From IMG/VR virus record IMGVR_UViG_2671180458_000009: a stretch of 4,458 bases of DNA. One strand, given 5' to 3'. The position numbers and the translations under genes are program-made. The stretch comes from a virus (Duplodnaviria; Heunggongvirae; Uroviricota; Caudoviricetes). The notes below the pieces were generated by a model. The model saw only the letters and a program-made list of their open reading frames with translations, had not been told where the DNA came from and made no database searches. Each line of letters begins with the position of its first letter. The first letter of the stretch is position 1. Of this stretch, positions 549-2,678 are shown piece by piece.

Positions 549-764
549 ATGTACCAGATGGAAAAAATCACAACAGGTGTGTCATACACCACGTCAGCGG
601 TGGGAACGGGCTACTGGTTCCTGCAGTTGCTGGACAGGGTTTCCCCGTCTCAGTGGGCGGCAATAGGCGTTCTGGGGAGTCTGCTGTTTGGGCTGCTGAC
701 ATATCTGACGAACCTGTATTTCAAAATCAAAGAGGACCGGCGTAAGGGCGCCCGGGGAGAGTGA
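549..764 (+). CDS. S: Class II holin (pinholin), phage 21 S21-like, 71 aa with an alternative internal start at 558 (68 aa)
   Basis: The translation [71 protein letters not shown] closely matches my recollection of phage 21 S21 (two TMDs, C-terminal KIREDRRKAARGE-like tail). GGGAGA lies 6 nt upstream of ATG 549. Met1 and Met4 form a dual-start motif. The ORF-track start at 495 is an upstream in-frame extension and unlikely to be the real start. Confidence 0.9.
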
Positions 765-767
765 ATA

Positions 768-1090
768 ATGAACCATGAAGAAATGAATCAGCGCTTCAGT
801 CGCCTGGAAAATGAAATTGCTGAACTGAATNNNNNNNNNNNNNNNNNNNNNNNNNNNNNNNNNNNNNNNNNNNNNNNAAGAACAATAAAAAACAGGGGCT
901 GATGCAGCGCATTGGTCGTTGCATGGGGTATCTGCAGGTAGCCGCTGAGATTGAAGCGCTGGCCAGTGGTGCGGACAAGGATTCAGTTGTGCGGGAGGCA
1001 CTTCTTCGTGATTTTGATCATCCGCCCTTTAAAAAAGTGCCGGCTTACTGGCTTCATCCCGGACTGACTTATCTGAAAGTGCGTATTTAG
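768..1090 (+). CDS. Uncharacterised protein between holin and endolysin, possibly YdfR/DUF1327-like, ~107 aa; reading frame interrupted by a 47-nt N-run
   Basis: ATG at 768 is 3 nt after the holin stop; 21 codons (MNHEEMNQRFSRLENEIAELN) run exactly to the N-run at 831. After the gap an open frame from 878 (KNNKKQGLMQRIGRCMGYLQVAAEIEALASGADKDSVVREALLRDFDHPPFKKVPAYWLHPGLTYLKVRI) ends at 1090. The two parts are out of frame by 1 with the N length as given, so the N-run is probably a gap or mask of arbitrary length. The same holin/endolysin-flanked position is occupied by ydfR in the E. coli K-12 Qin prophage as I recall; homology is inferred from position and size only. Confidence 0.5.
831..877. 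other. Run of 47 ambiguous bases (assembly gap or masked sequence)
   Basis: Directly visible as n characters in the sequence. It creates artefactual X-containing ORFs on both strands (594-1001 minus, 796-978 minus). Confidence 0.99.
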
Positions 1091-1126: not shown

Positions 1127-1660
1127 ATGAACACAAAAATCAAATACGGCCTGTCGGCTGCCGTTCTGGCGTTGATTGCCGCAGGGGCTTCTGCGCCTGA
1201 AATCCTCGACCAGTTTCTGGATGAAAAAGAAGGTAACCACACCACGGCATACCGTGATGGTGTGGGTATCTGGACCATCTGCCGTGGAGCCACCCGGGTG
1301 GATGGTAATCCTGTGATTCCTGGCATGAAGCTGTCGAAGGAAAAATGCGACCAGGTTAACGCCATTGAACGGGATAAGGCGCTGGCATGGGTGGAGAAAA
1401 ACATCAGAGTGCCACTGACTGAACCCCAGAAAGCGGGTATTGCGTCATTCTGTCCTTACAACATTGGCCCGGGTAAGTGTTTCACGTCGACGTTTTATAA
1501 ACGAATTAATGCAGGAGATCGCAGGGGAGTGTGTGAAGCGATTCGCTGGTGGATTAAGGACGGTGGCAGAGACTGCCGTATTCGCTCAAATAACTGTTAT
1601 GGTCAGGTATCCCGTCGTGACCAGGAGAGCGCGCTGGCGTGCTGGGGAATCGACAGATAA
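1127..1660 (+). CDS. R: SAR endolysin, phage 21 R21-like lysozyme (T4-lysozyme / GH24 fold), 177 aa
   Basis: The N-terminal Gly/Ala-rich weakly hydrophobic segment (YGLSAAVLALIAAGASAPEIL) is typical of a signal-anchor-release domain. The catalytic triad spacing E35-(9)-D44-(6)-T50 within EGNHTTAYRDGVGIWT matches T4 lysozyme E11/D20/T26 and R21. Overall it is close to my recollection of E. coli Qin RrrQ (177 aa). An in-frame stop lies immediately upstream of ATG 1127. Confidence 0.93.
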   Translation: MNTKIKYGLSAAVLALIAAGASAPEILDQFLDEKEGNHTTAYRDGVGIWTICRGATRVDGNPVIPGMKLSKEKCDQVNAIERDKALAWVEKNIRVPLTEPQKAGIASFCPYNIGPGKCFTSTFYKRINAGDRRGVCEAIRWWIKDGGRDCRIRSNNCYGQVSRRDQESALACWGIDR

Positions 1661-1858
1661 GCAGAATATTTTGCTGAAAAATGACGTTGGTCAACGCGGA
1701 CGGATAACACGAAATCCTGCGAACTGGCAAAACCTAAGTGAATAAAAGTAAAAAAACCGTTTGTTAGCAGCAGGTGGGGTTTTGTGTTTCCTGACTCCGG
1801 AAAAGTCAAAGGAGAAAGTGTGTTTGATTTTAGCAAACTGATTCGGGAGATTTGAGTG

Positions 1859-1957
1859 ATGGCTGAAAAATTATCCACCTGGAAGTTCATCCTTATCTGG
1901 CTGGTGTTTGTGATTATGGCCCCCGGTTATTTCATCGGTCAGATACGCTGGTGGTGA
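1859..1957 (+). CDS. Candidate 32-aa hydrophobic mini-protein ([32 protein letters not shown]), translationally coupled to Rz
   Basis: ATG at 1859 is preceded by GGGAGA with ~8 nt spacing. A single predicted TM helix has aromatic/basic flanks. The TGA stop at 1955-1957 sits 1 nt before the Rz ATG at 1959. It is too short for the ORF track; coding status is unproven. Confidence 0.35.
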
Positions 1958-1958
1958 A

Positions 1959-2426
1959 ATGAACCGCGTTCTGTGTGTGGTCATCATTGCCCTGCTGGTG
2001 GCCTGTGGTGCGCTTAGTCTGGGGCTGAATCATTACCGCGATAACGCCATCACCTACAAAGAGCAGCGCGATAAAAAAGCCAGAGAGCTGGAGCTGGCAA
2101 ACGCAACCATTACTGATATGCAGCAGCGCCAGCGCGATGTTGCTGCGCTCGATGCAAAATACTCGAGGGAATTAGCCGATGCGAGAGCTGAAAATGAAAC
2201 TCTGCGTGCTGATGTTGCCGCTGGTCGTAAGCGCCTGCGGATCAACGCCACCTGTCCAGGCTCCGTGCGTGAAGCCCCCACCACCTCCGGCGTGGATAAT
2301 GCAACCGGCCCCCGACTGGCAGACACAGTTGAACGGGATTATTTCACCCTCAGAGAGCGGTTGATGATGATGCAGAAGCAGCTGGAAGGGGCGCAGGAAT
2401 ATATCCGCACTCAGTGCCTGAAATAA
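1959..2426 (+). CDS. Rz: Spanin inner-membrane subunit (i-spanin) Rz, 155 aa
   Basis: N-terminal TMD ([18 protein letters not shown]) followed by coiled-coil-like periplasmic sequence. Strong similarity to recalled lambda Rz ([59 protein letters not shown]...[43 protein letters not shown]). Confidence 0.93.
2179..2364 (+). CDS. Rz1: Spanin outer-membrane lipoprotein subunit (o-spanin) Rz1, 61 aa, fully embedded in the +1 frame of Rz
   Basis: [61 protein letters not shown] has a lipobox (VVSAC), a proline-rich stretch and the conserved [14 protein letters not shown]...[13 protein letters not shown] motif of lambda Rz1. The embedded architecture is the classic lambda arrangement. Confidence 0.9.
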
Positions 2427-2678
2427 GTTTTGCTGATGCGCCGTATCGTCGCCGTATTCCCGTATTAACAGAGACCGCAGCCCGACAGGGAGACTCCTCT
2501 GCGAGAGTGTGCGGGGATAATCAAAAACGATACACACCGGGGTTTACCGCGTTAACGGAGCGCGGCGTTGTCCCCTCATAGTCGCCTGTCCGGTGCGATG
2601 GTGGAAGAAACTGGATTTGTTGCAACTGATAACCATTATCATTTTCTCGGGTCCTTTCCGGCATATGGACCCGTTACG

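What the first reader, a model, noticed from the sequence alone, without database searches (positions are those of the whole stretch)
1661..1958. Extra ~300-bp segment between endolysin and Rz carrying a 32-codon hydrophobic mini-ORF coupled to the spanin gene
In lambda and phage 21 as I recall them, R and Rz are essentially adjacent. Here about 200 bp of non-coding DNA (1661-1858) follow the endolysin stop, then a 32-codon ORF (1859-1957, [32 protein letters not shown]) with a plausible GGGAGA ribosome-binding site. Its stop lies 1 nt before the Rz start, which looks like translational coupling. The peptide is one TM helix with aromatic and basic flanks, the architecture of small membrane-active proteins such as type I toxins or lysis modulators, but I recognise no known family. 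A minus-strand ORF (1603-1890) also covers the spacer, so the coding strand is unsettled. If real, it is an uncharacterised extra member of the lysis cassette.
Basis: partly seen in the sequence, partly recalled or inferred. Interest (0 to 1): 0.55.

Follow-up and report, generated by a model that had tools for sequence, protein, structure and literature searches.

The report
Antisense-RNA-guarded small membrane protein cassette
The "mini-ORF" is the surviving tail of a conserved 45-codon phage membrane-protein gene, cut here by a stop codon, and it travels as a mobile cassette whose 5' end appears to hold a small antisense RNA gene built like the classic sar RNA of phage P22.

Summary
The coordinates and sequence are correct: ORF 1859-1957, GGGAG 9 nt upstream, stop 1 nt before Rz. 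But the ORF is not a 32-codon gene. Most relatives carry a 45-codon gene (phrog_6632, function unknown) that starts at GTG 1820 behind a strong AAGGAG. This window carries a minority allele, about 8% of E. coli copies, with TGA at codon 12 (1853-1855).

The gene is under purifying selection and the plus strand is the coding strand. It is not specific to lysis. The same cassette sits between endolysin and spanin in at least five unrelated lysis cassettes, and also inside tail and head operons across Enterobacterales.

The "non-coding" DNA contains two covarying hairpins. Codons 3-13 have frozen synonymous sites whose minus strand reads TGnTAAnAT, an extended -10. The layout copies P22 ant/sar: promoter inside codons 3-12, RNA start at the start codon, about 75 nt, terminator.

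I infer a cis-antisense sRNA that represses the long form, and possibly a switch to a short form that starts at the conserved Met14. No expression data were found. The window copy looks decayed: stop codon, weakened hairpin, S35P. It is a new variant of a known kind.

The parts
1127..1660 (+). Endolysin (context). Phage_lysozyme with a hydrophobic N-terminus typical of a SAR-type endolysin.
   Evidence: Pfam PF00959, E 8.9e-25. ORF.
1661..1744 (.). Spacer next to the endolysin. It is not part of the cassette. It is shared with lysis cassettes that carry a different insert (Sakai Sp15, between endolysin and ant) and partly with Salmonella L006.
   Evidence: Alignments and sequence. Similarity to Sakai stops at about AATAAAGT, which marks the left edge of the cassette.
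1745..1790 (.). Hairpin 1 with an A-tract upstream and a T-tract downstream, so it looks like a terminator on both strands. In this window the stem is degraded.
   Evidence: Terminator-like call at 1757-1777. In the two-hairpin element as a whole, 8 of 17 pairs (15 sequences) and 12 of 17 pairs (46 sequences) change on both sides, with 0 of 500 shuffles as high. Window stem energy is -7.5 (+) and -2.2 (-) kcal/mol, against -14 to -29 in intact relatives.
1792..1808 (.). Hairpin 2: a 5-bp stem with a 7-nt loop, directly abutting the Shine-Dalgarno sequence of the long ORF.
   Evidence: Stem sequences vary while pairing is kept: TGACT/AGTCA here, CCTTG/CAAGG and CGTTA/TAACG elsewhere. Non-Watson-Crick cells are G-U on the minus strand in 21 cases and on the plus strand in 1.
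1809..1814 (+). Shine-Dalgarno AAGGAG for the long (45-codon) reading frame.
   Evidence: Read directly. Conserved as AAGGAG or GGGAGAA 5-7 nt before a GTG or TTG start in all loci.
1820..1855 (+). First 11 codons of the ancestral 45-codon gene (M/V-FDFSKLIREI), ending at the allele-specific TGA at 1853-1855. That codon is CGA (Arg12) in 20 of 24 clusters.
   Evidence: Allele counts.
1827..1855 (-). Predicted promoter of the antisense RNA. The extended -10, TGcTAAAAT, is the complement of 1835-1827. A 17-nt spacer follows. The -35 is TCAAAT (complement of 1855-1850), which is TCGAAT or TCGCAA in relatives. The C-to-T change that creates the stop codon also removes the G of the -35.
   Evidence: TGnTAnnnT is present in the same register in 23 of 24 clusters. 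Ser5 is always AGC (23 of 23) and the third base of codon 4 is T in 23 of 24. The P22 Psar promoter is annotated in the same position, within ant codons 3-12, with TTGCTATACT.
1748..1820 (-). Predicted cis-antisense sRNA of about 73 nt. Order of parts: 5' anti-start and anti-SD (CUUUCUCCUUU), hairpin 2, A-rich ARN linker (GGAAACACAAAA), hairpin 1, U-tail. Its terminator is probably crippled in this copy.
   Evidence: Covariance model R1 scores 73.5 bits on the window at 1740-1822 (-). It scores 42-96 bits in about 50 other loci, including untrained ones. Sub-threshold Rfam hits to sar (28.6 bits) and ctRNA_pGA1 (30.5 bits) fall at the same place and strand in relatives. No expression data.
1845..1849 (+). 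Internal Shine-Dalgarno GGGAG, formed by codons Arg9-Glu10, 9 nt before ATG 1859.
   Evidence: An SD-like motif lies 5-13 nt before codon 14 in 23 of 24 clusters. Glu10 is GAG in 23 of 23, while Glu16 is GAA 13 to GAG 2.
1859..1957 (+). It encodes a transmembrane helix with a G36xxxG40 motif and an RWW end. This copy carries S35P.
   Evidence: phrog_6632, E 7.8e-20, profile positions 13-45 of 45. pS 0.5-0.88 against pN 0.05-0.29. AF2 model: helix 4-17, kink, helix 20-44, pLDDT 79.7. S35P.
1959..2426 (+). Rz i-spanin (context). Rz1 o-spanin is embedded at 2179-2364. The Rz start lies 1 nt after the small-ORF stop, and GGTGGT at 1950-1955 is a possible SD.
   Evidence: Pfam PF03245, E 2.9e-49. 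ORFs.

Best explanation
Positions from about 1745 to 1957 are one copy of a mobile mini-cassette found in temperate phages of Enterobacterales. Here it is inserted between the endolysin and Rz.

The cassette encodes a protein of about 45 aa (phrog_6632): a cytoplasmic amphipathic helix, a kink, one transmembrane helix, and a short RWW tail.

Its 5' 'head' appears to contain a convergent gene for an antisense sRNA of about 75 nt. The sRNA promoter lies inside codons 3-13 of the protein gene. Transcription would start opposite the start codon. The RNA would carry an anti-Shine-Dalgarno stretch, a small hairpin, an A-rich linker and a terminator hairpin. This is the same layout as sar RNA and ant in phage P22.

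Inferred mechanism. The plus-strand message exists only as read-through late transcript. The sRNA pairs with SD1 and the GTG start and blocks synthesis of the 45-aa form until late mRNA outnumbers it. The conserved internal SD2 and Met14 lie outside the duplex, so a 32-aa form containing only the transmembrane helix may still be made. That would resemble the sas/sieB-esc switch of P22. In lysis-cassette copies the ORF ends 1 nt before Rz, so its translation may also feed spanin translation.

The protein's own activity is unknown. My best guess is a membrane-active late protein that is harmful if made too early. It would behave like a toxin or a modulator of lysis timing.

The copy in this window is damaged in three ways: R12 changed to a stop codon (the same base change also weakens the antisense -35), a destabilised terminator hairpin, and S35P.

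Shown: gene family, purifying selection, mobility, covarying hairpins, frozen synonymous sites, architectural match to P22. Inferred: sRNA expression, repression, dual start, protein function.
For: Protein gene:
- phrog_6632 match.
- 35 homologues by word search and 40 representatives at 50% identity.
- Codons 14-45 have saturated synonymous sites with a low dN/dS ratio of about 0.05-0.2.
- The plus frame is intact in every homologue; the minus frame is broken.
- RefSeq annotates the 45-aa form as WP_000459345.1.

Mobility:
- The cassette occurs with five different holin/endolysin/spanin combinations, and also in tail, baseplate and head operons.
- It is absent from Qin in K-12, where rrrQ and rzpQ overlap.
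- Sakai carries a different insert at the same site.

Antisense RNA:
- Synonymous sites of codons 2-13 are frozen, with pS 0-0.44 (0.70 in one pair) against 0.5-0.88 downstream.
- AGC for Ser5 in 23 of 23 clusters; TGnTAnnnT on the minus strand in 23 of 24.
- The same -10 box recurs in a different reading frame in P22 ant, and in front of unrelated small ORFs of phrog_12997 and phrog_4493.
- In the P22 record, Psar lies in ant codons 3-12, sar starts next to the ATG, and the terminator follows.
- Hairpin covariation: 0 of 500 shuffles reach the observed value.
- G-U pairs in hairpin 2 favour the minus strand, 21 to 1.
- Sub-threshold Rfam hits to antisense RNA families fall exactly there.
- Model R1 finds untrained copies, including a second tandem cassette in E. 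fergusonii.

Internal start:
- Met14 in 24 of 24 clusters and SD2 in 23 of 24. Glu10 is always GAG, whereas Glu16 is mostly GAA.
- Serratia carries a natural 32-aa form.

Decay of this copy.
Against: - I found no transcript, Northern blot, transcription-start or ribosome-profiling data for this locus.
- The Hfq-CRAC catalogue of strain Sakai lists nothing here, but the two Sakai R-Rz regions I examined (Sp10, Sp15) carry a different insert, so that result is uninformative.
- Rfam gives no hit in the window. The best sar score in a relative is 28.6 bits against a threshold of 43.
- My own model matches P22 sar only over the terminator, at 16.9 bits and E 0.11. Homology to sar is therefore not established; only the architecture matches.
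- The -35 element is weak, 3 of 6.
- The generic promoter/terminator scanner flags neither element in intact relatives. It also misses the proven P22 elements.
- Frozen synonymous sites near a start codon can have other causes, such as initiation-region structure or the internal SD.
- Hairpin 1 shows no strand bias.
- No plus-strand promoter for the protein gene was found, and a terminator sits just upstream of it. That is odd for a gene that must be expressed in phages without antitermination.
- Met14 is replaced by Ile in one distant homologue, P0059.
- Alignment A12 was fitted to the model, which inflates the pair counts.
Confidence: 0.62

Rival explanations
1. A free-standing 32-codon gene with its own GGGAGA ribosome-binding site is a dedicated extra member of the lysis cassette, translationally coupled to Rz. 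It would act as an antiholin, a spanin modulator or a lysis modulator.
For: - The ATG and SD are conserved family-wide.
- The stop-N-ATG junction with the spanin is present in every lysis-cassette copy, even where the spanin families are unrelated: PF03245 and PF10721.
- Serratia has a 32-aa form.
- Two other, unrelated small transmembrane ORFs also sit immediately before Rz: Sakai ECs_1966 (phrog_4906) and the first cassette of E. fergusonii.
Against: - The normal gene has 45 codons, with conserved N-terminal residues and a strong SD at GTG1.
- The 32-codon state arises here from a minority nonsense allele.
- The cassette is equally at home between tail, baseplate and head genes, with no spanin nearby.
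- It matches no holin family.
Confidence: 0.15
2. There is no antisense RNA. Hairpin 1 is simply a plus-strand intrinsic terminator or insulator carried with a moron. The frozen synonymous sites in codons 2-13 reflect constraints on translation initiation and the internal SD. The small protein is an ordinary late or moron membrane protein, for example a superinfection-exclusion factor like HK97 gp15.
For: - The T-rich tail after hairpin 1 on the plus strand is conserved.
- Hairpin 1 is as stable on the plus strand as on the minus, or more so, in several loci, and it shows no G-U strand bias.
- AT-rich early codons are common in genes generally.
- Small membrane-protein morons in tail operons are a known kind. 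The HK97 gp15 example is from my own knowledge.
Against: - It does not explain exclusive use of AGC for Ser5, or CGA for Arg12 in 20 of 24 clusters.
- It does not explain the same TTGCTAnAnT box at the same distance from the start codon in P22 ant, in another reading frame, and in front of unrelated ORFs.
- It does not explain the conserved A-tract upstream of hairpin 1, which serves as a U-tail only on the minus strand.
- It does not explain the minus-strand G-U bias of hairpin 2.
- A moron would need a plus-strand promoter, and none is visible.
Confidence: 0.2
3. The cassette is a genuine type I toxin-antitoxin module. The 45-aa peptide depolarises the membrane, and the antisense sRNA is its antitoxin. 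The module would serve prophage stabilisation or abortive infection rather than lysis.
For: - A small, single-transmembrane, hydrophobic peptide.
- A predicted cis-antisense RNA covering the SD and start codon.
- Up to 12 places per genome match the R-cassette-Rz query.
- Pseudogenised copies are frequent, and in the nonsense-allele copies examined the terminator hairpin is also weakened.
Against: - There is no independent toxin promoter, so the toxin message would exist only in cells already committed to lysis. That leaves no scope for addiction.
- It matches no PADLOC defence model and no known type I toxin family in Pfam or NCBIfam.
- Toxicity has not been tested.
Confidence: 0.2
4. The real gene is the 95-codon minus-strand ORF at 1603-1890.
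For: It is open in this window and in some E. coli relatives, and CP-1639 annotates it.
Against: - Stops interrupt the equivalent frame in H-19B and in nearly all other homologues.
- It matches no family in Pfam, NCBIfam or PHROGs.
- It runs through the hairpin and into the antisense strand of the endolysin gene.
Confidence: 0.01

Closest known systems
P22 sar RNA / ant (immI region; Rfam RF00262)
   Same: The layout matches point by point. An extended -10 promoter of the form TTGCTAnAnT lies inside codons 3-12 of the target gene. The RNA starts opposite the start codon. It is about 70 nt long, with an anti-SD stretch near the 5' end and a hairpin terminator lying in the upstream intergenic DNA. 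The terminator sequence is similar (CCCTGACTGTT...GGGG). A sub-threshold sar hit falls at the right place in Edwardsiella. Published role: the mnt and arc repressors and the antisense RNA sar control expression of the antirepressor gene ant (PMC2629481).
   Different: The target here is a 45-aa membrane protein, not the 300-aa antirepressor. Scores are below the Rfam threshold (28.6 against 43), and there is no hit in the window. My model matches only the terminator of P22 sar. There are no Arc/Mnt repressors and no dedicated plus-strand promoter. The cassette lies in late operons.
P22 sas RNA / sieB-esc translational switch
   Same: An antisense RNA is combined with two in-frame start sites in one membrane-protein gene. 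The RNA would shift output from the long to the short product. [quoted passage not shown]
   Different: There is no sequence relationship. The gene is much smaller. The dual start here is inferred only from conservation of Met14 and SD2. The sRNA here overlaps the first start rather than lying inside the gene.
Type I toxin-antitoxin systems (hok/sok, symE/symR, ibs/sib)
   Same: A small hydrophobic single-pass peptide, with a cis-encoded antisense RNA that covers the ribosome-binding site. There are many copies in prophages and decay is frequent.
   Different: No toxin promoter was found and no toxicity data exist. It matches no known toxin family. It is embedded in phage late operons and, in lysis cassettes, sits 1 nt from the next gene.
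Phage morons encoding small membrane proteins (for example HK97 gp15), and the Sakai ant + ECs_1966 insert at the same R-Rz site
   Same: Extra DNA present in some members of a phage group and absent in others, inserted between conserved late genes and encoding a small membrane protein.
   Different: Classical morons carry their own sense promoter and a downstream terminator. Here the terminator is upstream and the only predicted promoter faces the other way.
PasB sRNA of EPEC E2348/69
   Same: An 83-nt, Hfq-dependent sRNA validated by Northern blot. It is transcribed antisense within a prophage tail operon and ends at a terminator placed just after the upstream gene (PMC8550237 Table S6).
   Different: It is not homologous: model R1 gives no hit. 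No conserved small membrane-protein ORF is attached.

Membership tests
phrog_6632 small phage protein (function unknown) | Significant match to the family profile | tested here: met
   The 33-aa window peptide scores E 7.8e-20 over profile positions 13-45. The 45-aa form of relatives scores E 1.2e-29 over positions 1-45.
phrog_6632 small phage protein (function unknown) | Full-length open frame of about 45 codons from the GTG/TTG start | tested here: not met
   TGA at 1853-1855 replaces Arg12. This is a minority allele.
sar RNA (Rfam RF00262) | Covariance-model score at or above the gathering threshold (43 bits) | tested here: not met
   No hit in the window at E up to 1. The best relative scores 28.6 bits.
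sar RNA (Rfam RF00262) | Promoter inside the first codons of the target gene, RNA start next to the start codon, about 70 nt, ending at a terminator hairpin | tested here: met
   Comparison with the annotated P22 record, and motif conservation in 23 of 24 clusters. This is prediction only; no transcript data.
sar RNA (Rfam RF00262) | Target is the antirepressor gene ant, within an immI region containing arc and mnt | tested here: not met
   The downstream gene is a 45-aa membrane protein. No arc, mnt or ant genes are in the window.
Type I toxin-antitoxin | Small (<60 aa) hydrophobic membrane peptide | tested here: met
   Sequence, plus AF2 model with helix 20-44.
Type I toxin-antitoxin | Antisense RNA antitoxin that is actually expressed and represses the toxin | not testable with these tools
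   Only a predicted promoter and terminator and covariation are available. No expression data were found in the papers searched.
Type I toxin-antitoxin | Toxicity on overexpression | not testable with these tools
   Requires an experiment.
Type I toxin-antitoxin | Independent promoter for the toxin mRNA | tested here: inconclusive
   No plus-strand promoter-like site was found between the endolysin and the ORF. The scanner also misses proven promoters.
Holin / antiholin or other dedicated lysis-cassette protein | Match to a holin family | tested here: not met
   No Pfam or NCBIfam hit.
Holin / antiholin or other dedicated lysis-cassette protein | Consistent residence in lysis cassettes | tested here: not met
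   The cassette also lies between baseplate genes (Yersinia, Pantoea, Serratia), after a 965-aa ORF of unknown function (Brenneria, Symbiopectobacterium), between tail genes M/L and after K (L045), and among head genes (L042).
Moron | Present or absent between conserved neighbouring genes in related phages | tested here: met
   Qin has no insert. Sakai has ant plus a 48-aa ORF instead. E. fergusonii has two tandem cassettes.
Moron | Own sense-strand promoter and a downstream terminator | tested here: not met
   The terminator-like hairpin is upstream of the ORF. In lysis cassettes the ORF runs straight into Rz.

The most novel reading that the evidence does not exclude
A large, so far undescribed class of phage mini-cassettes exists. 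In it, a portable regulatory 'head' is fused to interchangeable small membrane-protein genes: phrog_6632, phrog_12997, phrog_4493, and ant in P22. The head consists of a sar-like antisense sRNA gene that overlaps the SD, start codon and first dozen codons of its target. In the phrog_6632 family the sRNA would act as a threshold timer and isoform switch (45 aa to 32 aa) for a membrane-active late protein. In Stx and other lambdoid phages it would thereby also gate translation of the spanin gene immediately downstream, and so the timing of lysis and toxin release.
Probability: 0.3. Interest if true: 0.75.

Novelty: new variant of a known kind. Interest (0 to 1): 0.6.

Why it matters
- The R-cassette-Rz segment has matches in 2072 of 5426 complete E. 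coli genomes. In 871 genomes the match covers at least 80% of the query, with up to 12 places per genome.
- It matches 317 phage records, most of them Shiga-toxin-converting phages. In those phages it sits inside the cassette that times lysis, and lysis timing bears on toxin release.
- Annotation pipelines either skip the gene or call it hypothetical. No RNA family covers the conserved hairpin element.
- If the antisense RNA is real, P22 sar stops being a textbook one-off and becomes the founding member of a widespread, modular control device for small membrane proteins of phages.
- It would also add a testable RNA layer to the control of spanin translation, lysis timing, or both.
- The natural nonsense allele in this window is a ready-made knockout of the long form for such tests.
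- If the antisense RNA is not real, the result is still useful. It corrects the gene model to 45 codons with a GTG start, and it shows that the element is a mobile insert and not a lysis gene.

Tried and rejected
- Known EHEC prophage sRNAs (AgvB, AsxR, Esr41, STnc100, Pas sRNAs). Rfam finds none of them in the window. PasA and PasC lie between the esterase gene and the holin, not here.
- Hfq-CRAC catalogue of strain Sakai (Tree 2014, Table S2). EcOnc11 maps downstream of Rz, at roughly window 2501-2550, not to the R-Rz spacer. EcOnc05/08/21/42 map to the PR' moron site. The two Sakai R-Rz regions I examined (Sp10, Sp15) carry ant plus a different 48-aa ORF instead of this cassette, so the data set says nothing about it.
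- PasB as a family member: rejected, no hit with model R1.
- An antisense promoter inside the transmembrane codons (CTGACC-18-CATAAT, 1942-1913): rejected, because Salmonella and E. fergusonii do not conserve it and synonymous sites there are saturated.
- Homology between the phrog_6632 protein and the other small ORFs found before Rz (Sakai ECs_1966, E. fergusonii cassette 1): hhalign probability below 1%.
- Full-text search for the peptide sequence in papers: no hits.
- A search for sar-like elements in the literature was unproductive.
- The search for related loci with the broad alignment failed for lack of a conserved stretch. Sub-alignments worked.
- The generic promoter/terminator scan is uninformative, since it misses the proven P22 Psar promoter and sar terminator.
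- No fold search was attempted. A helix-kink-helix of 45 aa would give meaningless matches.
Full report
**Setting**

The window is a lambdoid, Stx-phage-type late region. In order it contains:
- a DUF1378/DUF826-type pair of small ORFs;
- an S21-type class II holin at 549-764 (PF04971), starting MYQMEK;
- an ORF interrupted by a run of N at 831-877;
- a phage lysozyme with a hydrophobic N-terminus at 1127-1660 (PF00959);
- the segment in question;
- Rz at 1959-2426 (PF03245), with Rz1 embedded at 2179-2364;
- the small and large terminase subunits.

The 401 bases around the finding match 317 phage records, mostly Stx-converting phages. They also match 2072 of 5426 complete E. coli genomes, 871 of them over at least 80% of the query, with up to 12 places per genome.

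**Checking the observation**

ATG is at 1859 and the stop at 1955-1957. GGGAG is at 1845-1849. The Rz ATG is at 1959. A minus-strand ORF runs 1603-1890.

A 32-codon ORF alone means little, because the window has 63 ORFs of at least 25 aa. Aligning the window with H-19B, CP-1639 and Stx2_EH2201 shows CGA where the window has TGA at 1853-1855. That gives a 45-codon ORF starting at GTG 1820, five bases after AAGGAG. CP-1639 annotates this form, and RefSeq annotates it as WP_000459345.1 in strain E2865.

The 45-aa sequence matches phrog_6632, a 45-position profile of unknown function, at E 1.2e-29. The window peptide matches positions 13-45 of that profile. Pfam, NCBIfam and PADLOC give nothing.

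Exact 45-mers centred on the SNP count the alleles in complete E. coli genomes. The TGA allele occurs at 80 places in 73 genomes. The CGA allele occurs at 905 places in 742 genomes. The window therefore carries a minority nonsense allele of a 45-codon gene.

**Is it a gene, and on which strand?**

Homologues of 45-50 aa occur in many genera. They include E. albertii, E. fergusonii, Salmonella, Citrobacter, Edwardsiella, Yersinia, Izhakiella, Sodalis, Brenneria, Pantoea, Symbiopectobacterium, Serratia and Trabulsiella, plus many viral contigs.

The consensus is M-x-D-[FI]-SKLIRE[LI]R-x-M-x-E-K-L-[PS]-x-W-[KR]-F, then a transmembrane helix containing G-Y-[FL]-I-G, often ending in RWW. AlphaFold gives helix 4-17, a kink at 18-19 and helix 20-44, with mean pLDDT 79.7.

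Pairwise Nei-Gojobori counts for codons 14-45 give pS 0.5-0.88 and pN 0.05-0.29. That is clear purifying selection on the plus frame. The plus frame is intact in every homologue examined. The frame equivalent to the window's minus-strand ORF contains stops in almost all of them, H-19B included. The coding strand is plus.

**Not a lysis gene but a mobile cassette**

The ORF lies between the endolysin and the i-spanin, one base before the spanin ATG, in cassettes built from unrelated parts:
- S21 holin + T4-type lysozyme + Rz (this window);
- Phage_holin_2_3 + lysozyme + Rz in a P22-like Salmonella prophage;
- Phage_holin_8 + GH19 endolysin + DUF2514 spanin in E. fergusonii;
- two further combinations, in Citrobacter and Edwardsiella.

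The same ORF, with the same upstream DNA, also occurs well away from any lysis genes:
- between baseplate genes in Yersinia, Izhakiella, Pantoea and Serratia;
- after a 965-aa ORF of unknown function in Brenneria and Symbiopectobacterium;
- between tail genes M and L, and again after K, in viral contig L045;
- among Mu-like head genes in L042.

K-12 Qin has no insert, and its rrrQ and rzpQ overlap. Sakai Sp10 and Sp15 carry a different insert at the same site: an antirepressor gene plus an unrelated 48-aa membrane ORF, phrog_4906. The first 85 nt or so after the endolysin stop are shared between the window and Sakai. This places the cassette's left edge near position 1745.

**The 'non-coding' DNA**

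Every copy is preceded by the same two-hairpin element. Hairpin 1 reads AAAGCCCCG...CGGGGCTTT, with an A-tract before it and a T-rich tract after it, so it looks like a terminator on both strands. Hairpin 2 has a 5-bp stem that abuts the SD. Its stem sequences differ between lineages: TGACT/AGTCA here, CCTTG/CAAGG and CGTTA/TAACG elsewhere.

On 15 hand-chosen sequences, 8 of 17 pairs show changes on both sides, and no shuffle out of 500 reaches the observed covariation. On 46 distinct sequences aligned to my covariance model, 12 of 17 pairs do so, again with 0 of 500. That second alignment was fitted to the structure, which inflates the counts.

The non-Watson-Crick cells of hairpin 2 are G-U on the minus strand in 21 cases and on the plus strand in 1. 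Hairpin 1 shows no such bias.

**Frozen synonymous sites and an antisense promoter**

Codons 2-13 behave differently from the rest of the gene. Their pS is 0-0.44 (0.70 in one pair), against 0.5-0.88 downstream. The sequences fall into 24 clusters that differ by more than 10% in codons 14-45. Across those clusters:
- Ser5 is AGC in 23 of 23, never AGT or TCN.
- The third base of codon 4 is T in 23 of 24.
- Arg12 is CGA in 20 of 24.
- Glu10 is GAG in 23 of 23, whereas Glu16 is GAA 13 times and GAG twice.

Read on the minus strand, codons 3-6 spell TTGCTAAnAT. That is an extended -10 (TGnTAAnAT), present in the same register in 23 of 24 clusters. Codons 11-13 supply a weak -35 (TCGCAA or TCGAAT) after a 17-nt spacer. 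Transcription from there would begin opposite the start codon and end at hairpin 1. The product would be an RNA of about 72-79 nt with, in order, an anti-SD stretch (UUCUCC), hairpin 2, an ARN-rich linker (AGAAACAGAAAA), the terminator and a U-tail.

This is the architecture of the P22 sar RNA. In the curated P22 record, ant starts at 15091 and sar runs from 15090 to 15021. The sar promoter occupies 15097-15125, which is ant codons 3-12, and the terminator occupies 15021-15058. The P22 -10 box is TTGCTATACT, six bases from the complement of the ATG.

The same box recurs in front of unrelated small membrane ORFs. It lies at the same distance from the start codon but in whatever reading frame the gene happens to use:
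- TTGCTAGACT before a 50-aa phrog_12997 ORF, which forms a second tandem cassette in E. fergusonii;
- TTGCTATACT before a 50-aa phrog_4493 ORF in L042;
- TATAAT before a divergent member in L045.

Rfam gives sub-threshold hits to antisense RNA families at exactly the predicted place and strand. These are sar at 28.6 bits (threshold 43) in Edwardsiella and ctRNA_pGA1 at 30.5 bits (threshold 45) in a MAG. My model R1, built from 15 sequences, finds the element upstream of the ORF in about 50 further loci. These include copies it was not trained on, such as the second E. fergusonii cassette at 58.7 bits.

The limits of this evidence need stating:
- R1 matches P22 sar only over the terminator, at 16.9 bits and E 0.11. 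I claim the same design, not proven homology.
- The window itself has no Rfam hit.
- The simple promoter/terminator scanner flags nothing in intact relatives. It also misses the experimentally established P22 elements.
- I found no expression data. The two Sakai R-Rz regions I examined (Sp10, Sp15) lack the cassette, so the Hfq-CRAC catalogue is uninformative.
- PasB of EPEC is an analogous, experimentally validated antisense sRNA inside a prophage tail operon, but it is not a member of this family.

**A second start?**

It is present in 24 of 24 clusters and in all but one of the more distant proteins. An SD-like motif lies 5-13 nt upstream in 23 of 24 clusters. The motif survives amino-acid changes at position 9: CGG GAG, AGG GAG, AAG GAG, ATG GAG, or CGC GAG GTG. 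Serratia has a natural 32-aa form that starts at this Met and overlaps the stop of the upstream gene.

The predicted sRNA duplex would end at the first start codon, leaving SD2 and Met14 free. An RNA-controlled choice between a 45-aa and a 32-aa product is therefore plausible. It would parallel the published sas/sieB-esc switch of P22 (PMC13397905, PMC5415839). This step is inference only.

**State of the copy in this window**

The window copy has three changes that point the same way:
- The C-to-T change at 1853 creates the stop codon. On the other strand it also turns the -35 from TCGAAT into TCAAAT.
- Hairpin 1 has lost stability. It folds at -7.5 (+) and -2.2 (-) kcal/mol, against -21 and -14 in H-19B. 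Other TGA-allele copies are intermediate, at -15.9 and -9.4.
- The transmembrane helix carries S35P.

Decayed copies are common elsewhere too, with frameshifts, early stops, or heads lacking an ORF. The 32-aa product could still be made here, perhaps by reinitiation, because the TGA lies three bases before the ATG. Even so, this copy is more likely a relic than a specialised gene.

**Function**

What is shown:
- a conserved small membrane protein;
- a mobile cassette;
- a conserved, structured 5' element;
- nucleotide-level constraints that match a sar-type antisense promoter.

What is inferred: the sRNA keeps the protein, or its long form, off until late transcripts outnumber it. The protein would then be a late, membrane-active factor that is harmful if made too early. 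In lysis cassettes its translation may feed into Rz.

A dedicated lysis role, a plain moron protein with no antisense RNA, and a genuine type I toxin-antitoxin module remain rival explanations. They are scored separately in this report.

Noticed in passing
window 831-877: A run of 47 N lies inside the ORF between the holin and the endolysin. The near-identical STEC1590 locus has a 185-aa hypothetical protein there, and its holin-to-lysozyme spacing is about 235 nt longer. The N run therefore hides missing sequence.
   Followed up: partly
window ~2501-2550, minus strand: This stretch matches, with a few mismatches, the Sakai segment that holds the Hfq-CRAC peak EcOnc11 (homologues EcOnc10/12). 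That peak is one of the most abundant Hfq-bound prophage RNAs in Tree et al. 2014, and it lies just downstream of Rz.
   Followed up: partly
window 1661-1744: The roughly 85 nt after the endolysin stop are conserved independently of the cassette. They also occur before the ant insert of Sakai Sp15 and partly in Salmonella. They contain the inverted repeat GGATAACACGAAATCC. Function unknown.
   Followed up: no
L026 825-971 and L029 1249-1395 (Sakai Sp10, Sp15): At the same R-Rz site, Sakai carries an antirepressor gene followed by an unrelated 48-aa membrane ORF (phrog_4906), whose stop lies 7 nt before the Rz start. A small membrane ORF immediately before Rz is a recurring theme.
   Followed up: partly
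L010 3675-3907; L042 4050-4282; L045 2348-2581 and 4826-5063: The same regulatory head (hairpins, SD and minus-strand -10 box) is fused to other small membrane ORFs: phrog_12997, phrog_4493 and divergent phrog_6632. Some phages carry two cassettes. E. fergusonii has two in tandem, with a duplicated TGATATG junction.
   Followed up: partly
L130 1462-1544 (E. coli E2348/69, PasB): PasB is an 83-nt, Northern-validated sRNA. It is antisense within a tail operon, directly after the tail assembly gene. Its 5' part is complementary to an AAGGAG plus a 15-codon ORF on the sense strand. This layout is analogous to the cassette studied here but not homologous to it.
   Followed up: partly
window 549-560: The holin starts MYQMEK, with two Met codons three codons apart. 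This resembles the dual-start (holin/antiholin) motif of S21 (the S21 comparison is from my own knowledge).
   Followed up: no
L005 6350-6435, minus strand (K-12 Qin, between ynfS and ydfT): Model R1 gives a weak hit here, 20.1 bits and E 0.02. It may be only a terminator-like hairpin. Not examined further.
   Followed up: no
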